Shown here one piece after another: positions 6,383 through 53,202 of a stretch of 64,000 nucleotides of DNA. Source of the DNA: Octopus sinensis (taxonomy: Eukaryota). The first letter of the stretch is position 1; every line of letters begins with the position of its first letter. A program made the position numbers and the translations under genes. Under the pieces are notes generated by a model that saw nothing but the letters and a program-made list of their open reading frames with translations, was not told the DNA's origin and did not search any database. Location: NCBI RefSeq assembly GCF_006345805.1, contig NC_043008.1, positions 7,998,001 through 8,062,000 of the forward strand, in the 5' to 3' direction.

Positions 6383-8690
6383 ATACAAATATACACGTAT
6401 ATATATATTCATACATACATACATGCTTACATATGATCAGGTATGTACGTAGGTAGATAAATAGATCGATAGGTAGGTATATATGTATATAGGTGGATAG
6501 GTAGGAAAGTAGCTAGGTAGCTAGGTAGGTATGTTGGCGGGTAGGTAGGGGAGAGGATGGGAGGTTGAGATATATGTAGGTCAGGAAATAGAAATAATAT
6601 TCATATTTGAAAACCAATCTTTCATCAAATATATAGAAATATGCTGCGTTCTTTTACACACTTTTAGCATGTTTCATATAGATATTTGGATGTGTGCAGA
6701 CATATCCTGATATCCATATGTGTGTGCGCGCGCATGTGTGCGACCGTTTGTAAATGCGCAAATGCGAAATTTCTGGATTTACGTTTGATTCTTACTTACC
6801 ATTCATTGAATTAGAGCGAATCGGAAACAGGTACAAATCTTAGATTTTTTTTTTATTCTTTATCAAACGAATAAGGATGAATCTGTTATTCGATCACTCC
6901 GCAGCAAGACTTTTAATTATATTTCCAAAATATTCATGAAAAACAATCATCAATATTTATGATGTCTTTGCTTCGCCAAATTATCTTTGCTCACCTTTGA
7001 TATTCCCTTATAACAACTTCAGCAGAGGCTTTCAATAAATTCAACAGTCACATGTCTACGGAAACATACATCCAGACTTATGTAGGTAAATCAATAGATA
7101 TATACAAATGAAATTGGATACATAGGGACAAAGATTCCGGAGCATATTCCCTTTCATACATGTACTAATACATGTTCGATCGAGCAAGTAGACACTACAC
7201 TCTTCTGTTTTCTCTTAAACATAAGAATAATCCCCTTATAAAAATACGCTCACACCTGTAAATTGATTAATTTGCGTAAATCCTCGTATTTACACAAATA
7301 GTTATATTCTCCTTTTCACACCCTGCATTCTTTTATAGTTCACACATCTCTCCCTTTATATTCAACAAAGCAATTTTCTTGTAAAATCTCAAGAAGTTTT
7401 TCTTAATGTAAATGTAGAGTTTAAATTATTTTATTCAAAAGGTATGGCGTTGCATTATACATAACCTCAGAACTCTATTAAAAGATTTACCAATTTTTAC
7501 ATAGCTTGTGATGTGAAACACATCGTCTGAAATTGCATACACTATCACACACACATATTTATGTGTGAGTATATTTAAGTGTGTGTGTGTGTATGTTAGT
7601 GTGTATGTGTATATGTGCGTGCACGCGTGCTTGTGCGTGTGTGCGCAGCTATATGTTTGTTTTCGTATTTCTGCCGAAATTCCTGACGAAATGAACCGGC
7701 AACATTTTATCACGAAAATATAGCGACAGAAATAGAGATCGATAGATGAATAGTGAAACACACAAAAAGAGAGAGAGTATGTAATTGTCTGGGAATCTTT
7801 CCTTGTACCACTGAGCAAGAACGAATACTCAAAATGTCCTTGAAATGAGACAGGCTTTATACAACTTATACTCGCTGCTAGTCACTCATATTTCGCAATC
7901 TCTAATAACAAATGAATGTTCCTCAGTAATGGATGTTCATTTCTGTGAGCGCTTACGTACATCCCTCGAAAGTAAAAAAATATTTTTAGCATGATATTTT
8001 GCCCATAAATTTCTGCCTGCCAATAATCTGGTTGAGGAATATTCTAGTTGCGAGTTATTGTCGATTAAACGTTGTGAATATTCACTAAAAGTTTGTGAGA
8101 GAAATTTACCTACTTTGTATTCCATCGAATCAGAACACAGACACACACAGACACACACACATACAATACGCTCATACACACATATTCTAGTGGCTACGTC
8201 TACCGAACATTTGAACAAATAAGTGCTTAGCTCCAAGTTATATTTGCAGACACTTGATTTCGGAGTGAAATTCAGAAAGACGCCTGTGCCTAGTTTATCT
8301 GCTGTTTAATTTCTTGGTATTAGTTTAATTACAGCACCACGCCTCTAGGCAGAGAGAGAGAACTATTTCCTTGTTACAACGTTAACTCTATTGTTCTGAG
8401 GAAATATTTGCTTGCCATATATCATACAGTTCTAATCGATGAGTATTACTTGCATATATGCGTACTACAAAATAAAGTATTTTACAAAAGCTTTCCTTTA
8501 ACATAAAACGTTCAATATGAATATTTTACAAGAATTAATAATTATTACTATACATGTGCTTCAGTATTAGGAAAGCAAAATATATCTCGATGTTTTCCAT
8601 CTTTCCAGGAATTTGTTTCAATAAAATAAATTGGTACATTATGTACTATATTTACACTTGACGGATATTAGTCCTCATCCTGATGTTATT

Positions 8691-8736
8691 AACACAACGT
8701 TTCGGCTGATATACCTTCCACCTTTCATCAGGTGTC
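8691..8736 (-). ncRNA. Minimal type I hammerhead ribozyme motif (family B, left arm)
   Basis: gacac-CTGATGA-aaggtgg...cagcc-GAAA-cgtt-gtgtt. Stem I is gacac/gtgtt, stem III is the ACGT palindrome, and stem II is weakened. Confidence 0.7.
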
Positions 8737-8837
8737 TTGGGGAAATTTTAAACCTGGGTTCTCATTCCTAAGGTATTTTTAGATGTTATTATTATATTAT
8801 TATTATTATTATTATTAATATTATTATTATTATTATT

Positions 8838-9430
8838 GTTCAGTAGTTTTATTTTTATTTTTATAGCGTGCTTTCACTTCACTACCGAGCGCAGTTCTGT
8901 GTGCCTTGGGTATGTGCTGTGATTTGTTGTGATGCTCTGATGGTTATTGTATGGAAAGTGTTCTGCGTAGGATGTGTGCAGTGCCTAGTAGTGCAATTTT
9001 CTGTATGTTATATGTGTTTGTAAGTCCTGGTGTTTTTGTTATGTGTTATGTATTTGTCTGAATATTTTTTTATCATGCCTAATGCGACCTACCATGATAG
9101 GAATTGTTTCTGTTTTCAGATTCCACATTCTAGTTACCTCTATTTCCAGGTCTTTGTATTTTGAGAGTTTCTCCATTTCTTTTAGAGACACGTTGTCATC
9201 AGCCGGTATTGATACATCAATTAGAAAGCATTTTTTTTCTTCATGGTCTCTGACAACTATATCTGGTCTGTTGGCCTTAATTTCTCTATCTGTGTGTATC
9301 GGCATATCCCAGAGTATGGTTGCTTTCTCGTTTTCTGTGACCTTTTCTGGTGTGTGCCTATACCATCTTTTTTCTGTTGTTATTCCATAATGTTGGCATA
9401 GCTTCCAATGTATGTAAGTTCCAACTCTGT
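8838..9430 (-). mobile_element. R4/Dong-like LINE 3' end with restriction-like endonuclease (RLE) domain, copy 1
   Basis: DRVGTYIHWKLCQHY...ILWDMPIHTDREIKANRPDIVVRD...LIDVSIP...EKLSKYKDL...IQKIALLGTAHILRRTL*, including the PD..D motif, with frameshifts. Both ends abut (TAA)n. Confidence 0.9.
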
Positions 9431-9457
9431 CATTATTATTATTATTATTATTATTAT

Positions 9458-9886
9458 TCTATGTTTGACTTTTGCTTTATATATGTACAAGTTGGCTCCA
9501 AGTCTCACCCAGAGACCTCAAGAGACAACAGGGTTGGAAGTTCATGTTGTTGTTATGCCTAGTGTGCCATATATTTGGGGGGTGGGGATGTTGTACTAAT
9601 GAATGTCTAAAAAAAAAAAAAAATTTTTTTTTTTTTTTTTAAACCGAAAATTATGGTTGTTTTAAACCTTGAGGTTACATAGAGAGTATTTTGCGTAGGA
9701 TATGAGCAGTTCCATGAGCACTATCTTTTGAACTTCTGCCATTTTTGGGTTTCCTGGTATCTGAGTTAGGTAGCTATCAGCCCCTTTTGCTATCATTCCC
9801 AGGGCACCTATGACAACAGGTATTGTTTTAGTCTTCAGCTTCCACATTTTGCTGATTTCTATTTCAAGATCTTTATATTTGCTCAG

Positions 9887-9887
<1 letters not shown>
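9458..9887 (-). mobile_element. R4/Dong-like LINE 3' end, copy 2 (different subfamily)
   Basis: KLSKYKDLEIEISKMWKLKTKTIPVVIGALGMI...VQKIVLM, frameshift, TAHILRKILSM*, then a 3' UTR unlike that of copy 1. Both ends abut (TAA)n. Confidence 0.88.
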
Positions 9888-9942
<55 letters not shown>

Positions 9943-9960
9943 CATTATTATTATTATTAC

Positions 9961-10098
9961 TATTCAGGTCACTGCCTGGAATCGAACTTGGCATCTTGGG
10001 GTTAGTAGTCCGTATATTAACTACTACGCCATATACCCGTAGGTATAGGCGTAGTAGCATACTAACCCCAAGATTCCGAATTCGATTCCGGGCAGTGA

Positions 10099-10106
<8 letters not shown>
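9961..10106. promoter_or_regulatory. Two divergent tRNA-like Pol III heads forming a hairpin
   Basis: Minus copy has A-box-like TGGCGTAGTAG and B-box-like AGTTCGATTCC. Plus copy has AGGCGTAGTAG and AATTCGATTCC, with a ~12-nt deletion between the boxes. Confidence 0.65.
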
Positions 10107-10167
<61 letters not shown>

Positions 10168-10288
10168 GAAGAAGAAGAAGAAGAGAGAAGAAGAAGAAGA
10201 AGAAGAAGAAGAAGAAGAAGAAGAAGAAGAAGAAGAAGAAGAAGAAGAAGAAGAAGAAGAAGAAGAAGAAGAAGAAGAAGAAGAAGAA
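10103..10288 (+). repeat. Compound (TAA)n(GAA)n microsatellite
   Basis: About 21 TAA units followed by about 40 GAA units. Confidence 0.98.
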
Positions 10289-10313
10289 ACTGTATTAGGA
10301 ATGAGAACCCCAA

Positions 10314-10359
10314 GACACCTGATGAAGGCCAGAGAGTAAATCAGCCGAAACGTTGTGTT
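10314..10359 (+). ncRNA. Minimal type I hammerhead ribozyme motif (family B, right arm)
   Basis: gacac-CTGATGA-a-ggc...gcc-GAAA-cgtt-gtgtt. Core intact; predicted cleavage after GUU at 10354. Confidence 0.78.
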
Positions 10360-11012
10360 AACAACAAACAAGATGAGGACAAATATCCGTCTAATGTGAA
10401 TAATGTAAATAATGTACATAACTCCTGAAAATTTACAAATGGTTTGTATCAGACGAAATCCTGCCTGTATATGAATATATCTACATGACGTATATTTCTT
10501 TTAGTGATATTTTAGGAACAAACTATTTTGATATTTATTGATTCTGTCCAGTAATGATATTTATCAACAAATCAGAAGCTATTATCTTTTTTAAACGTCA
10601 CCAATCAGGCCGTACGGGCGTCATTAACCGAAGAGAAATAGTTATCGGTTATGAGAAGTATAAATATTTATAGCGAAATGTTTTCAACACAATTTTTGAC
10701 ATTTTTTCCTTACGCATTTAATATTGTAGAATACACTTATTAAAGTTGTTTAAACGCTTAACGCACTGCATGATATTATTCTGTATCAAGTTTATATTTG
10801 AACATTGTGAAAGAATTTAGATATTCAGAGAGAGAATAATTAGTATTATTTCTCTGTGCTACAACATCTGTGCTAGGATTATAATGAGGCTACTTAAATG
10901 CAAATAATTGTATGGATGCCTTCTGTATTGTAAAACATTAATGATGCCCAAATAACTTTATAAGTAACCTCAGTTGACGACTACTTTCGCTTTCATTATT
11001 AATGACTTAAAA

Positions 11013-41969: not shown

Positions 41970-42333
41970 GTGGCACTTCGTCGGTTACGACGACGAGGGT
42001 TCCAGTTGATCCGATCAACGGAACAGCCTGCTCGTGAAATTAGCGTACGAGTGGCTGGGCACTCCACAGAAATGTAGTTCTCGGAGAGATTCAGCGTGAC
42101 ACATAATGTGACAAGGCTGGCCCTTTGAAATACAGATACAACAAAAACAGGAATAAAGGGTGTGAGAAAGTTGTTGTGAAAGATTACAGCGAGATTTTCC
42201 ACCACCACCACCCTCTGCCGGATCCACGTGGAGCTTTAGGCGTTTTCGCTCAATAATGCCCGGTCTTGGAATCGAAACCGCGATCCTACGACCGCGAGTC
42301 CGCTGTCCTAAGCACTGGGTCATTGTGATTCCA
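41970..42333 (-). mobile_element. tRNA-derived SINE S3
   Basis: Collinear with 51415-51799; boxes TGACCCAGTG and GGTTTCGATTCC. Confidence 0.88.
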
Positions 42334-42781
42334 CATACTGTAAGAATAAGAAGGCTCAAAATTAGGAGTGATATCAGACTAGTATTAGAAGAGAAGAATA
42401 TATAGAATAATAATCATAAACGTGAGAGAATGGGCACATTTGCATAAAACAGAGTGGGAGACGTAGGTGTAACTGCATTAGAAGTAACATAGTTGCCAGC
42501 CGTTCAAAAGATCAATAAGTTTACCAGAAGAGGGTTTGAACCTACGACGATGAGTGACAGAATGAAAAGATTTGTGGTGATTGGAACGGCCGACAAGTCT
42601 CCAGCTGAACGCAAGTATGCCTAAACGTCTGGCCAATGAATGCTAAATTCATCCATGCGTGCAGACGCGTGACGCTCCCAGCAACCTATAGAATGGAATG
42701 TAAAAGCAGTGAGAGGTAAAAGACGATCAAGATTGTAAGGTATGAGTAGTCAGTACAGGAGTACTGTTGTTACTTTCTATT

Positions 42782-51414: not shown

Positions 51415-51799
51415 ATGGAAGCACTCCGTCGGTTGCGACGACGAGAGTTCCGGTTGATCCGAATCAACGGAACAGCCTGCTCGTGAAATTAACGTGTAAT
51501 TGGCTGAGCACTTCACAGACACGTGTACCCTTAACGTAGTTCTCGGGGATATTCAGCGTGACACAGAGAGTGACAAGGCCGGCCCTTTGAAATATAGATA
51601 CAACAGAAACAGGAAGTAAGAGTGAGAGAAAGTTGTGGTGAAAGAGTACAGCAGGGATCACCACCATCCCCTGCCGGAGCCTCGTGGAGCTTTAGGTGTT
51701 TTCGCTCAATAAACACTCACAACGCCCGGTCTGGGAATCGAAACCGCAATCCTATGACCGCGAGTCCGCTGCCCTAACCACTGGGCCATTGCGCCTCCA
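51415..51799 (-). mobile_element. tRNA-derived SINE S3, best-preserved copy
   Basis: ggaggcgcaaTGGCCCAGTGGttagggcagcggactcgcggtc...GGTTTCGATTCCcag, with clear A and B boxes. Confidence 0.9.
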
Positions 51800-53202
51800 C
51801 TTATAAGTTCTTATACACTGTGCATGAATACATTCCTGGGATCAACCTTATCTTTTATAGTTAATATTCTTACACCCTGTATGGAAATCCCTTCTTTTAT
51901 GTCTGGCGAAAGATCATCATTTCACTTTACAAGTTAGCCATCATGACTTTAAAGTAACAATTTCATCGCAATTCCGAAGGGAATTACTTGAAATTTACAG
52001 AAACTTCTTCCTTTGTTAACATATTCATGTCGCGAAGACATTTATGAATTCGGTTTATGAAATACTAAATGAGACTCATGATTAAAGAATTCGTATATTA
52101 TATCCGGATAGTGAATTACCCACTGCTATAATCATGACGATACCGGTTTGACTTTGACTCTCTTTAACAAATCAAAATAATTTAAATCCTCTTAATTCTA
52201 CCTCAGTTCATCTAGTTGTATTTATTTATTGCTACTTTTCATAAAATAACCTATATTTGTTTTACGCTCAATGTGCATTTTCGCTTTTTTTTCTCCTTAC
52301 TTTCCCCATACCTTTTCCACATATGAGTGCTGCTTTTTGTTCCAACGTTGCAGGACTGCAATCTTGAAGATGAGATGTCATAAGCGGGTTGTTTCTTTTA
52401 CACTGACAGTGCCGTTTATTACCTATCAAATTGCATGTATATATATTATTATGTATGACTTTATGCATGTATGGAAAACTGCACGTTTATATGTGTGCAT
52501 CCTGGCATTGGTGAATGTGCGTGCATGTGTGTATGACCGTGTGCGTGTATGTATTTGTGCTTGTGGGTGTTTGTGTAAAATAGTTCCGATTTGTTCTTGT
52601 CCTTCTATATTTGCATTTACCGATCGGCAACGCTGTACAGATATTCAATAGTGTTATTCTGAAAAGAGAAATAAAACTTTAAATTGAGAAAACATTACAC
52701 CAGTTGAAGAACACTAACAGAAACAAAAAAAAAAAGAAAAAAAAAATTCTCCGAAGCAAAACACAACAGTAGAAGATATTTTTGCAACAAAGGAAAAACC
52801 TTATGATATATTGAAAGCTTTGATTACAAGCTGATATTATTATTCCAGTACAAAAATATCTATTAGTCGTCGAAAAATACCTGATGTTGTTGTTAAAGCA
52901 GTTAATATCGTCAAATGTGGTCATTTTGCTGTGTTTCTATTAATGCATCGATCGAGCGTATAAAACATAATGAAAGGACTAACATATATGTAATCACAGA
53001 ACGTGTTTCAAATATGATTATTGCATCTGTTATTTGAAGGGGAACTATCGCCATAACTGACAAAAGGATCCAAAGAATACGTTTTGACTGTTTATGTGCT
53101 TTTGGGGGATGTTCCTTGATTTATTGTTTTCTGATAAATTTATATCAATTATTACACACACACATGAGCGCACACACATACACACACACTTGTGTATATA
53201 TA

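What the first reader, a model, noticed from the sequence alone, without database searches (positions are those of the whole stretch)
8639..10421. Divergent dimer of a tRNA-headed, hammerhead-tailed element: candidate Penelope-mobilised ribozyme SINE
Seen: two copies of one module (tRNA-like A/B-box head, (TAA)n, ~130-bp tail with a minimal type I HHR) fused head-to-head around a 4-nt loop at 10038-10041. The arms differ by substitutions and deletions, which argues against a read fold-back artefact. Known: minimal HHRs with a palindromic stem III (here ACGT) mark Penelope pseudo-LTRs and are reported to cleave as dimers, and PLEs often insert with inverted ends. Typical SINEs instead carry a LINE-derived tail. 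Inference: this is a Pol III non-autonomous element that borrows PLE RT/GIY-YIG and whose 3' end is set by self-cleavage. Read-through transcription would give a long hairpin RNA. I cannot tell from here whether this family is already described.
Basis: partly seen in the sequence, partly recalled or inferred. Interest (0 to 1): 0.85.

Follow-up and report, generated by a model that had tools for sequence, protein, structure and literature searches.

The report
Penelope retrotransposon with tRNA-derived promoter repeat

Summary
The head-to-head pair is real, but it is not a separate SINE with a borrowed tail. The whole module (tRNA-like head, (AAT)n, hammerhead tail) is the terminal repeat (pLTR) of an autonomous Penelope/Poseidon element. 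The head follows the GIY-YIG stop codon in 27 of 29 ORF-end loci. The tail is the first 55 codons of the ORF. Outward-facing pairs are the family's normal insertion form: 30 of 35 have one long and one short 3' end, and 18 of 35 show a target duplication of 8-15 bp. Copies end 34-95 nt past the ribozyme cut; none of 45 ends at it, so self-cleavage does not set the 3' end. The open question is Pol III transcription of the full coding element. In favour: 5' ends pile up just before the head, and the ORF has 0.29 TTTT runs/kb against 3.5 in a same-genome control. This is suggestive only (p about 0.01-0.08); RNA reads gave no support. The short form may be the octopus OK SINE of 1994 (recalled, unverified).

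The parts
8634..8787 (-). Left tail: 3' part of the Penelope pLTR, i.e. 5' UTR plus first ~43 codons of the ORF (ATG at 8765, now with a stop); ends at family position ~155 ('short' end)
8696..8731 (-). Minimal type I hammerhead core, left arm; predicted cut between 8696 and 8695; helix II broken
8786..8864 (-). (AAT)n of the left arm, tail side
8865..9434 (-). 3' end of an R4/Dong-type LINE (restriction-like endonuclease piece P0002 at 9093-9434, then ORF end and 3' UTR), nested in the (AAT)n
   Evidence: clade name from recalled motifs and the (AAT)n target
9432..9458 (-). (AAT)9 between the two LINE ends
9460..9888 (-). 3' end of a second, related LINE family (P0001 at 9704-9886, then 3' UTR), 73% identical to the first over 97 nt
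9888..9964 (-). (AAT)n of the left arm, head side
9965..10038 (-). Left tRNA-like head, full length; A-box-like 10021-10031, B-box-like 9978-9987
10039..10040 (.). 2-nt junction (AC on the minus strand), the recurrent fold-back junction of the family
10041..10102 (+). Right tRNA-like head with ~13 nt deleted and a changed first B-box base (10080)
10103..10288 (+). (AAT)22 then (AAG)41
10291..10426 (+). Right tail: ORF start (ATG 10301, followed by a 16-nt deletion); ends at family position ~164, 72 nt past the cut
10319..10354 (+). Minimal type I hammerhead core, right arm; predicted cut after 10354; helix II reduced to 3 bp

Best explanation
The feature is a decayed, outward-facing pair of terminal repeats (pLTRs) of a Penelope/Poseidon retrotransposon, each made of a tRNA-like head, (AAT)n and the hammerhead-bearing start of the element's own ORF, likely inserted in one event by the element's RT/GIY-YIG from RNA that likely began at the head by Pol III, with two LINE ends likely added later inside the left (AAT)n. 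Steps: (1, shown) In ORF-bearing copies the order is RT, GIY-YIG, stop, 29-nt leader, head, (AAT)n, tail, and in full-length-type copies the tail runs in frame into the ORF. (2, shown) Insertions are mostly two 5'-joined, outward-facing copies, one with a ~30-nt longer 3' end, often inside one target duplication. (3, inferred from the Anolis Poseidon element) Reverse transcription starts inside the RNA at two zones around a stem-loop in the first 55 codons, not at the ribozyme cut. Any RNA that starts at the head and enters the ORF therefore carries a complete ~270-nt mini-template at its 5' end, and the short SINE-like copies are by-products of the parent RNA. (4, inferred) The cDNA ends a few bases before the head, where leader and head form a hairpin; it folds back or switches template, which gives the inverted second arm and the recurrent AC/GT junction. 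(5, inferred, weakest) The head is a Pol III promoter used by the coding element itself, and the ORF avoids TTTT terminators. The ribozyme likely processes tandem parent transcripts or is dispensable for insertion; this window's copies are likely dead.
For: Head after ORF stop 27 of 29, tail after it 22 of 29, inverted head or tail upstream 18 of 29 (the query stopped before the head). Tail continues into ORF in 4 of 4 fetched top N-terminal hits; L208 starts at the head itself. Tail translation matches the N-terminus of homolog P0127, 19 of 45 identical, E 2e-4. Protein 33% identical to an Anolis PLE protein, E 7e-48, no Neptune zinc linker. Divergent pairs 22 of 29, 18 of 30, 3 of 4 loci; convergent 3 of 63; head-to-tail tandem 0 of 63. 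Long+short ends 30 of 35, p 9e-6; flank repeats of 8 nt or more 18 of 35 against 0.6% shuffled. Arms share variants 0.107 against 0.029 shuffled. ORF pieces from beyond the tail sit in 2 of 45 junctions (L033, L054). 5' pile-up: of 74 exact head-start matches on C1+C2, 15 continue exactly as leader, 13 exactly as fold-back, 46 neither (hand count). TTTT runs 11 in 37 kb of family ORF against 90 in 26 kb of Neptune ORF at equal T content; Phe TTC:TTT 254:66; 13 of 14 run positions private to one copy. Box changes between old and young subfamilies fall only on degenerate positions. Literature.
Against: No direct sign of Pol III RNA: reads from a related organism are strand-balanced, with no pile-up of starts or ends at head or cut. 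The pooled TTTT count reflects one lineage: for a single 2.4-kb ORF p is 0.013 (codon shuffle) to 0.076 (dinucleotide shuffle). 6 of 70 related PLE ORF stretches also have no run, among them L211, whose UTR is full of T runs. The leader-head hairpin alone could explain the 5' pile-up. How an uncapped Pol III RNA would be translated is unexplained. No target duplication at the window's own pair, and neither arm has a clear long end. No intact full-length ORF was found among 134 and 143 matches. Rfam and ARAGORN do not call the head a tRNA.
Confidence: 0.55

Rival explanations
1. Same Penelope pLTR identity, but an ordinary Pol II-transcribed element. [quoted passage not shown]
For: Read depth falls steadily from tail through head into the ORF, as for 5' truncation. 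Leader-head hairpin folds at -11.5 kcal/mol; 211 exact fold-back junctions. RNA strand-balanced. TTTT absence per lineage is only borderline.
Against: A full-length-type copy starts at the head (L208). Many 5' ends stop 2-10 nt before the head with no fold-back. Boxes kept across two subfamilies. An unrelated intact PLE (L210) also has box-like motifs before its ribozyme and few T runs.
Confidence: 0.27
2. One reading: after arising from the pLTR, the short form became an independent Pol III SINE family with its own source copies (including head-to-head dimers) mobilised in trans by the Penelope protein.
For: Short copies dominate: 3 of 3 sampled insertions and the window lack ORF beyond the tail. 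Several copies begin with a 10-nt fold-back-type stub rather than the parent leader, as if transcribed from a dimer. No T4 terminator in the module majority.
Against: Head, (AAT)n and tail are all parent sequence. The core position-7 variant occurs in both short and ORF-bearing copies. ORF pieces in junctions show templates that ran into the ORF. This likely holds for a share of copies rather than for the family.
Confidence: 0.15
3. A LINE-mobilised tRNA SINE ending in (AAT)n into which Penelope fragments insert independently, or an assembly fold-back artefact.
For: R4/Dong-type LINE ends are found in the (AAT)n of several copies; inverted arms can arise as artefacts.
Against: Fixed head-(AAT)n-tail order in 28 of 30 loci; target duplications enclose whole pairs; arms differ and junctions vary; the fold-back junction also appears in reads and contigs of other runs.
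Confidence: 0.03

Closest known systems
Penelope/Poseidon-clade PLEs, esp. Poseidon of Anolis carolinensis (PMC11167929; PMC8557442)
   Same: Single ORF with RT and C-terminal GIY-YIG; ribozyme overlapping the ORF start; copies extend past the cut; optional 30-40-nt tail at one end; inverted 5'-truncated partner.
   Different: The pLTR here holds a tRNA-like A/B-box head and (AAT)n; solo head-tail copies far outnumber ORF copies; ORF poor in TTTT. No such head is mentioned in the parts I read.
Schistosoma Sm-alpha / Sj-alpha SINE-like repeats (via review PMC6765202)
   Same: Apparent Pol III promoter followed by a type I hammerhead in a short repeat.
   Different: Those are described as head-to-tail tandems released by cleavage, with no coding parent named; here 0 of 63 loci are tandem, ends are not at the cut, and the module is part of a coding PLE.
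Octopus OK SINE (Ohshima and Okada 1994, PMID 7932738; seen only as a reference entry, content recalled)
   Same: Recalled as tRNA-Arg-related with AAT repeats in the middle and a stretch like newt satellite 2; best tRNA match here is Arg-TCT.
   Different: Identity not testable here. As recalled, no Penelope parent was known.
Non-LTR retrozymes (bioRxiv 10.64898/2026.07.22.740005)
   Same: Short pLTR-related sequences with type I hammerhead, thought to use PLE enzymes.
   Different: Defined as tandem arrays; the text has no mention of tRNA, promoter or Pol III.
TRIMp3: Cassandra, Helenus, Ajax (PMC10886601)
   Same: Small-RNA-derived Pol III promoter inside a terminal repeat.
   Different: Non-autonomous LTR elements; the paper expects their autonomous partners to use Pol II and not share the repeat, whereas here the coding element shares the whole head.
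Tx1 LINEs sharing U1/U2-derived 5' ends with SINEU (PMC4494074, PMC4758252)
   Same: Autonomous retroelement and short element share a small-RNA-derived head.
   Different: LINE, snRNA-derived head without known internal promoter; no ribozyme or pLTR.

Membership tests
Penelope/Poseidon PLE | One ORF with RT and C-terminal GIY-YIG endonuclease | tested here: met
   L206 covers residues 19-843 of P0127 in two pieces; RVT_1 hit; homolog domains
Penelope/Poseidon PLE | No zinc-finger-like linker between RT and EN (present in Neptune/Nematis) | tested here: met
   Absent translations, present in Neptune loci; criterion
Penelope/Poseidon PLE | pLTR repeated at ORF end and ORF start | tested here: met
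Penelope/Poseidon PLE | Inverted 5'-truncated copy next to the insertion | tested here: met
   43 of 63 short loci; 18 of 29 ORF-end loci
Penelope/Poseidon PLE | 30-40-nt tail at one end only | tested here: met
   30 of 35 pairs
Penelope/Poseidon PLE | Intact, active copy in this genome | tested here: not met
   No full-length open frame among the best 134 and 143 matches; only the best candidates were scored
Minimal type I hammerhead | Core CUGANGA / GAAA / UH with palindromic helix III | tested here: met
   Both arms; 36 of 83 tails keep the core; 15 of 21 relatives' motifs keep ACGT
Minimal type I hammerhead | Helix II paired | tested here: not met
   3 bp and 0 bp in the window arms; 5 bp or more in 23 of 83 tails
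Minimal type I hammerhead | Self-cleavage as a dimer | not testable with these tools
   Cofold favours a dimer by 3-6 kcal/mol only; no read ends at the cut
tRNA SINE (SINE2) | tRNA-derived head with A and B boxes | tested here: inconclusive
   Alignment score 59.5 against shuffled maximum 46.5 of 500, 51 of 79 columns with tRNA-Arg(TCT), only 9 anticodon types in the set; Rfam and ARAGORN negative
tRNA SINE (SINE2) | Head is not part of the autonomous partner; only the tail is shared | tested here: not met
   Head in 27 of 29 ORF-end loci
tRNA SINE (SINE2) | Tail from a LINE | tested here: not met
   Tail is the start of a PLE ORF
tRNA SINE (SINE2) | Transcription by Pol III | not testable with these tools
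   Indirect only; RNA reads uninformative
Non-LTR retrozyme / Sm-alpha type | Head-to-tail tandem units | tested here: not met
   0 of 63 loci
Non-LTR retrozyme / Sm-alpha type | Unit ends defined by ribozyme cleavage | tested here: not met
   0 of 45 tails end at the cut
Octopus OK SINE | Sequence identity to the published family | not testable with these tools
   Paper not held; no Repbase, Dfam or SINEBase sequences available

The most novel reading that the evidence does not exclude
An autonomous, protein-coding retrotransposon transcribed by RNA polymerase III: a Penelope whose pLTR promoter is a captured tRNA gene, whose 2.5-kb ORF has been purged of TTTT terminators, and whose every transcript doubles as template for a SINE. 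The same design may have arisen a second time in an unrelated PLE (L210), and would give hammerhead SINEs such as Sm-alpha a Penelope parent.
Probability: 0.35. Interest if true: 0.88.

Novelty: new variant of a known kind. Interest (0 to 1): 0.66.

Why it matters
SINEs are thought to be Pol III heads fused to LINE tails, and coding retrotransposons to need Pol II. Here a SINE-like family of roughly 20,000 insertions is simply the terminal repeat of a coding Penelope, which names a PLE rather than a LINE as its motor and shows a route from pLTR to SINE without any fusion at the SINE stage. If the head drives the full element, it would be a natural 2.9-kb Pol III mRNA, testable with standard assays. 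The many short copies with long/short ends, target duplications and templated junctions are also a large natural record of the poorly understood PLE integration reaction.

Tried and rejected
Neptune PLEs as partner: none of 30 GIY-YIG loci matches the tail. R4/Dong LINE as partner: nested passenger only. Self-cleavage as 3' end and tandem/circular model. Rfam at gathering and E-value thresholds: no tRNA or hammerhead, only hairpin-driven miRNA hits. ARAGORN: nothing at default or 90%, only implausible folds at 70-80%. Target duplication at the window pair: best 8 of 9 nt, not accepted. Head or tail profile in 77 metagenome PLE loci: no hit; a tRNA profile gave one weak hit (L210, 5.1 bits, E 0.4) among 63 UTRs and itself missed 2 of 5 own-family heads. 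Relatives in viral and prokaryote collections: none. RNA reads: the family is present in RNA of a related organism, both strands alike, no end pile-up; library strandedness unknown. Runs with small word shares (X18-X23) were not used. Careful tree unfinished; quick tree used, L142 dropped as too short. Earlier findings: none. No host gene recognised among 48 long frames in the window (by eye).
Full report
Setting. The window lies on contig C12 of a 2.7-Gb animal genome rich in microsatellites. No call names the organism; an octopus is my inference from the repeat landscape.

Observation. Two copies of one module face outward from a 2-nt junction at 10039-10040. Each has a 75-nt head with A- and B-box-like motifs, (AAT)n, and a tail with a minimal type I hammerhead core. 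Both ribozymes have damaged helix II. ARAGORN and Rfam find neither tRNA nor hammerhead. The head majority aligns to 27 tRNA sequences from the genome better than all 500 shuffles (59.5 against at most 46.5), best to tRNA-Arg(TCT), with Ala, Cys and Lys close behind and only 9 anticodon types present.

Family. Searches gave 1502 tail and 1047 head candidates, 40 scored and 30 fetched each. In 40 evenly spaced 10-kb stretches there were 3 insertions with 5 tails, all 3 with an inverted partner: about 20,000 insertions, roughly 4,000-60,000 by a hand Poisson interval. Head and tail are linked in 28 of 30 head-selected loci; divergent pairs occur in 22 of 29, 18 of 30 and 3 of 4 loci, convergent in 3 of 63, head-to-tail tandems in 0 of 63 (L001, a duplicate of the window, left out). 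Tail ends form two groups, positions 126-164 and 179-187, with the cut after 92. Of 45 tails in head-selected loci, 41 end in those groups, 3 before the ribozyme's end and one at 98. Of 35 pairs, 30 have one long and one short end (p 9e-6) and 18 share a direct repeat of 8-15 nt across the flanks, against 0.6% of shuffled flanks (the set includes the window pair and a locally duplicated pair). Arms of a pair share variants more than shuffled arms. This fits the PLE signature in PMC8557442 (passages): inverted 5'-truncated partner and a 30-40-bp tail at one end. The window pair itself shows no target duplication.

The parent. Neptune PLEs do not match. A young pair at L045/L131 sits inside an old RT+GIY-YIG element whose ORF end is followed by a worn head. 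A search with that ORF end, stopping before the head, returned 29 other loci: 27 have the head after a 29-nt leader, 22 the tail, 18 an inverted head or tail upstream. The protein is of Penelope/Poseidon type. In the four best N-terminal hits fetched (4 of 143) the tail continues into the ORF; L208 begins at the head and L206 spans almost the whole ORF. The tail's 55 codons align with the N-terminus of homolog P0127. The Anolis element has the same layout: ORF starting in the ribozyme, RT starting internally at two sites that bound the tail, cleavage not needed for insertion, no RNA ends at the cut (PMC11167929, parts 1-2 of 4). A predicted stem-loop in the tail has the short ends in its upper part and the long ends just past it. 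Two subfamilies, 7% apart in the ORF, both carry the head. No intact full-length ORF was seen; copies are 5-8% from their majority.

Why short copies. None of the 3 sampled insertions has ORF beyond the tail. Among 41 full heads most leave the parent sequence within 10 nt upstream, either ending or turning into an inverted head. Genome-wide exact counts are 211 fold-back and 249 parent-leader junctions; of 74 exact head-start matches on C1 and C2, 15 continue as leader, 13 as fold-back and 46 as neither (hand count; decay inflates 'neither'). Two of 45 junctions contain ORF pieces from just beyond the tail, so some templates ran from the head into the ORF. A Pol III start before the head, a hairpin between leader and head (-11.5 kcal/mol), or both would explain this.

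Pol III test. Family ORF pieces have 11 TTTT runs in 37 kb, Neptune ORFs 90 in 26 kb at the same 22% T, LINE pieces 5 in 6 kb. Of 14 run positions 13 are private to one copy, so the source elements likely had none. Against: this is one lineage; p is 0.013-0.076 for one ORF; 6 of 70 related stretches also have none (median 2.4 per kb), one of them with a T-rich UTR. L210, an intact tandem PLE from a metagenome contig, has A- and B-box-like motifs and a short AAT stretch before its ribozyme and 2 runs of four T per 2.8-kb unit; it is not sister to this family (quick tree) and its tRNA-profile score is weak. RNA reads from a related organism cover head, tail and ORF on both strands equally, with no pile-up of ends; 372 reads show the fold-back junction. 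This neither supports nor excludes low-level Pol III RNA.

Known or new. Nine literature searches listed no paper whose title or abstract start describes a tRNA head in a PLE pLTR or a PLE-mobilised tRNA SINE; the narrow ones gave 0 or 1 hit. Read as passages: PMC6765202 (Schistosoma promoter+hammerhead SINEs), PMC4209133, PMC10886601, PMC13282606, PMC4758252, PMC3531059, PMC9223172, PMC4494074, PMC5786205; bioRxiv 10.64898/2026.07.22.740005 part 1 of 5 and passages. Ohshima and Okada 1994 was seen only as a reference; my recollection that its OK family has a tRNA-Arg head, AAT repeats and a newt-satellite-2-like stretch is unverified, but makes it likely that the short form was described long ago as a SINE. 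Repbase, Dfam and paper supplements (e.g. the repeat library of PMC13282606) were not seen and may hold this family.

Verdict. Real, decayed, and one of thousands of like insertions. Identity as a Penelope pLTR with a tRNA-like head: about 0.9. Pol III use by the full coding element: about 0.35. New variant of a known kind; interest 0.66.

Noticed in passing
L210:180-5199 (metagenome contig): Intact tandem PLE, units 100% identical, with A/B-box-like motifs (about 2830-2895) and an AAT stretch between ORF end and hammerhead; few T runs; not sister to the family here.
   Followed up: partly
window 8865-9888; L004, L006, L016, L036, L038, L043, L049, L052, L156: R4/Dong-type LINE ends repeatedly sit in or beside the module's (AAT)n, sometimes two in a row; the repeat acts as a landing pad.
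   Followed up: partly
L067, L068 and many hits: A Neptune-type PLE family with many 781-aa open frames and equal scores, so likely young; nearby hammerhead-like motifs begin with T instead of C.
   Followed up: no
L131:3974-4497: A young pair of the module inserted into an old ORF-bearing copy of its own parent family, with a clear target duplication.
   Followed up: yes
window 51601-51800 and 42139-42335 (minus): Copies of another abundant repeat with a tRNA-like 5' end (27 hits in 464 kb); not identified.
   Followed up: no
window 9605-9644: A long A run directly followed by a long T run in the second LINE's 3' UTR, a self-complementary stretch.
   Followed up: no
L030:208-1979: Two near-identical pairs side by side with the same junction, likely a local duplication after insertion.
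   Followed up: no
L209 (sense 953-1115): A GC-rich foreign stretch of about 150 nt inserted in the 5' UTR between (AAT)n and the ORF start.
   Followed up: no
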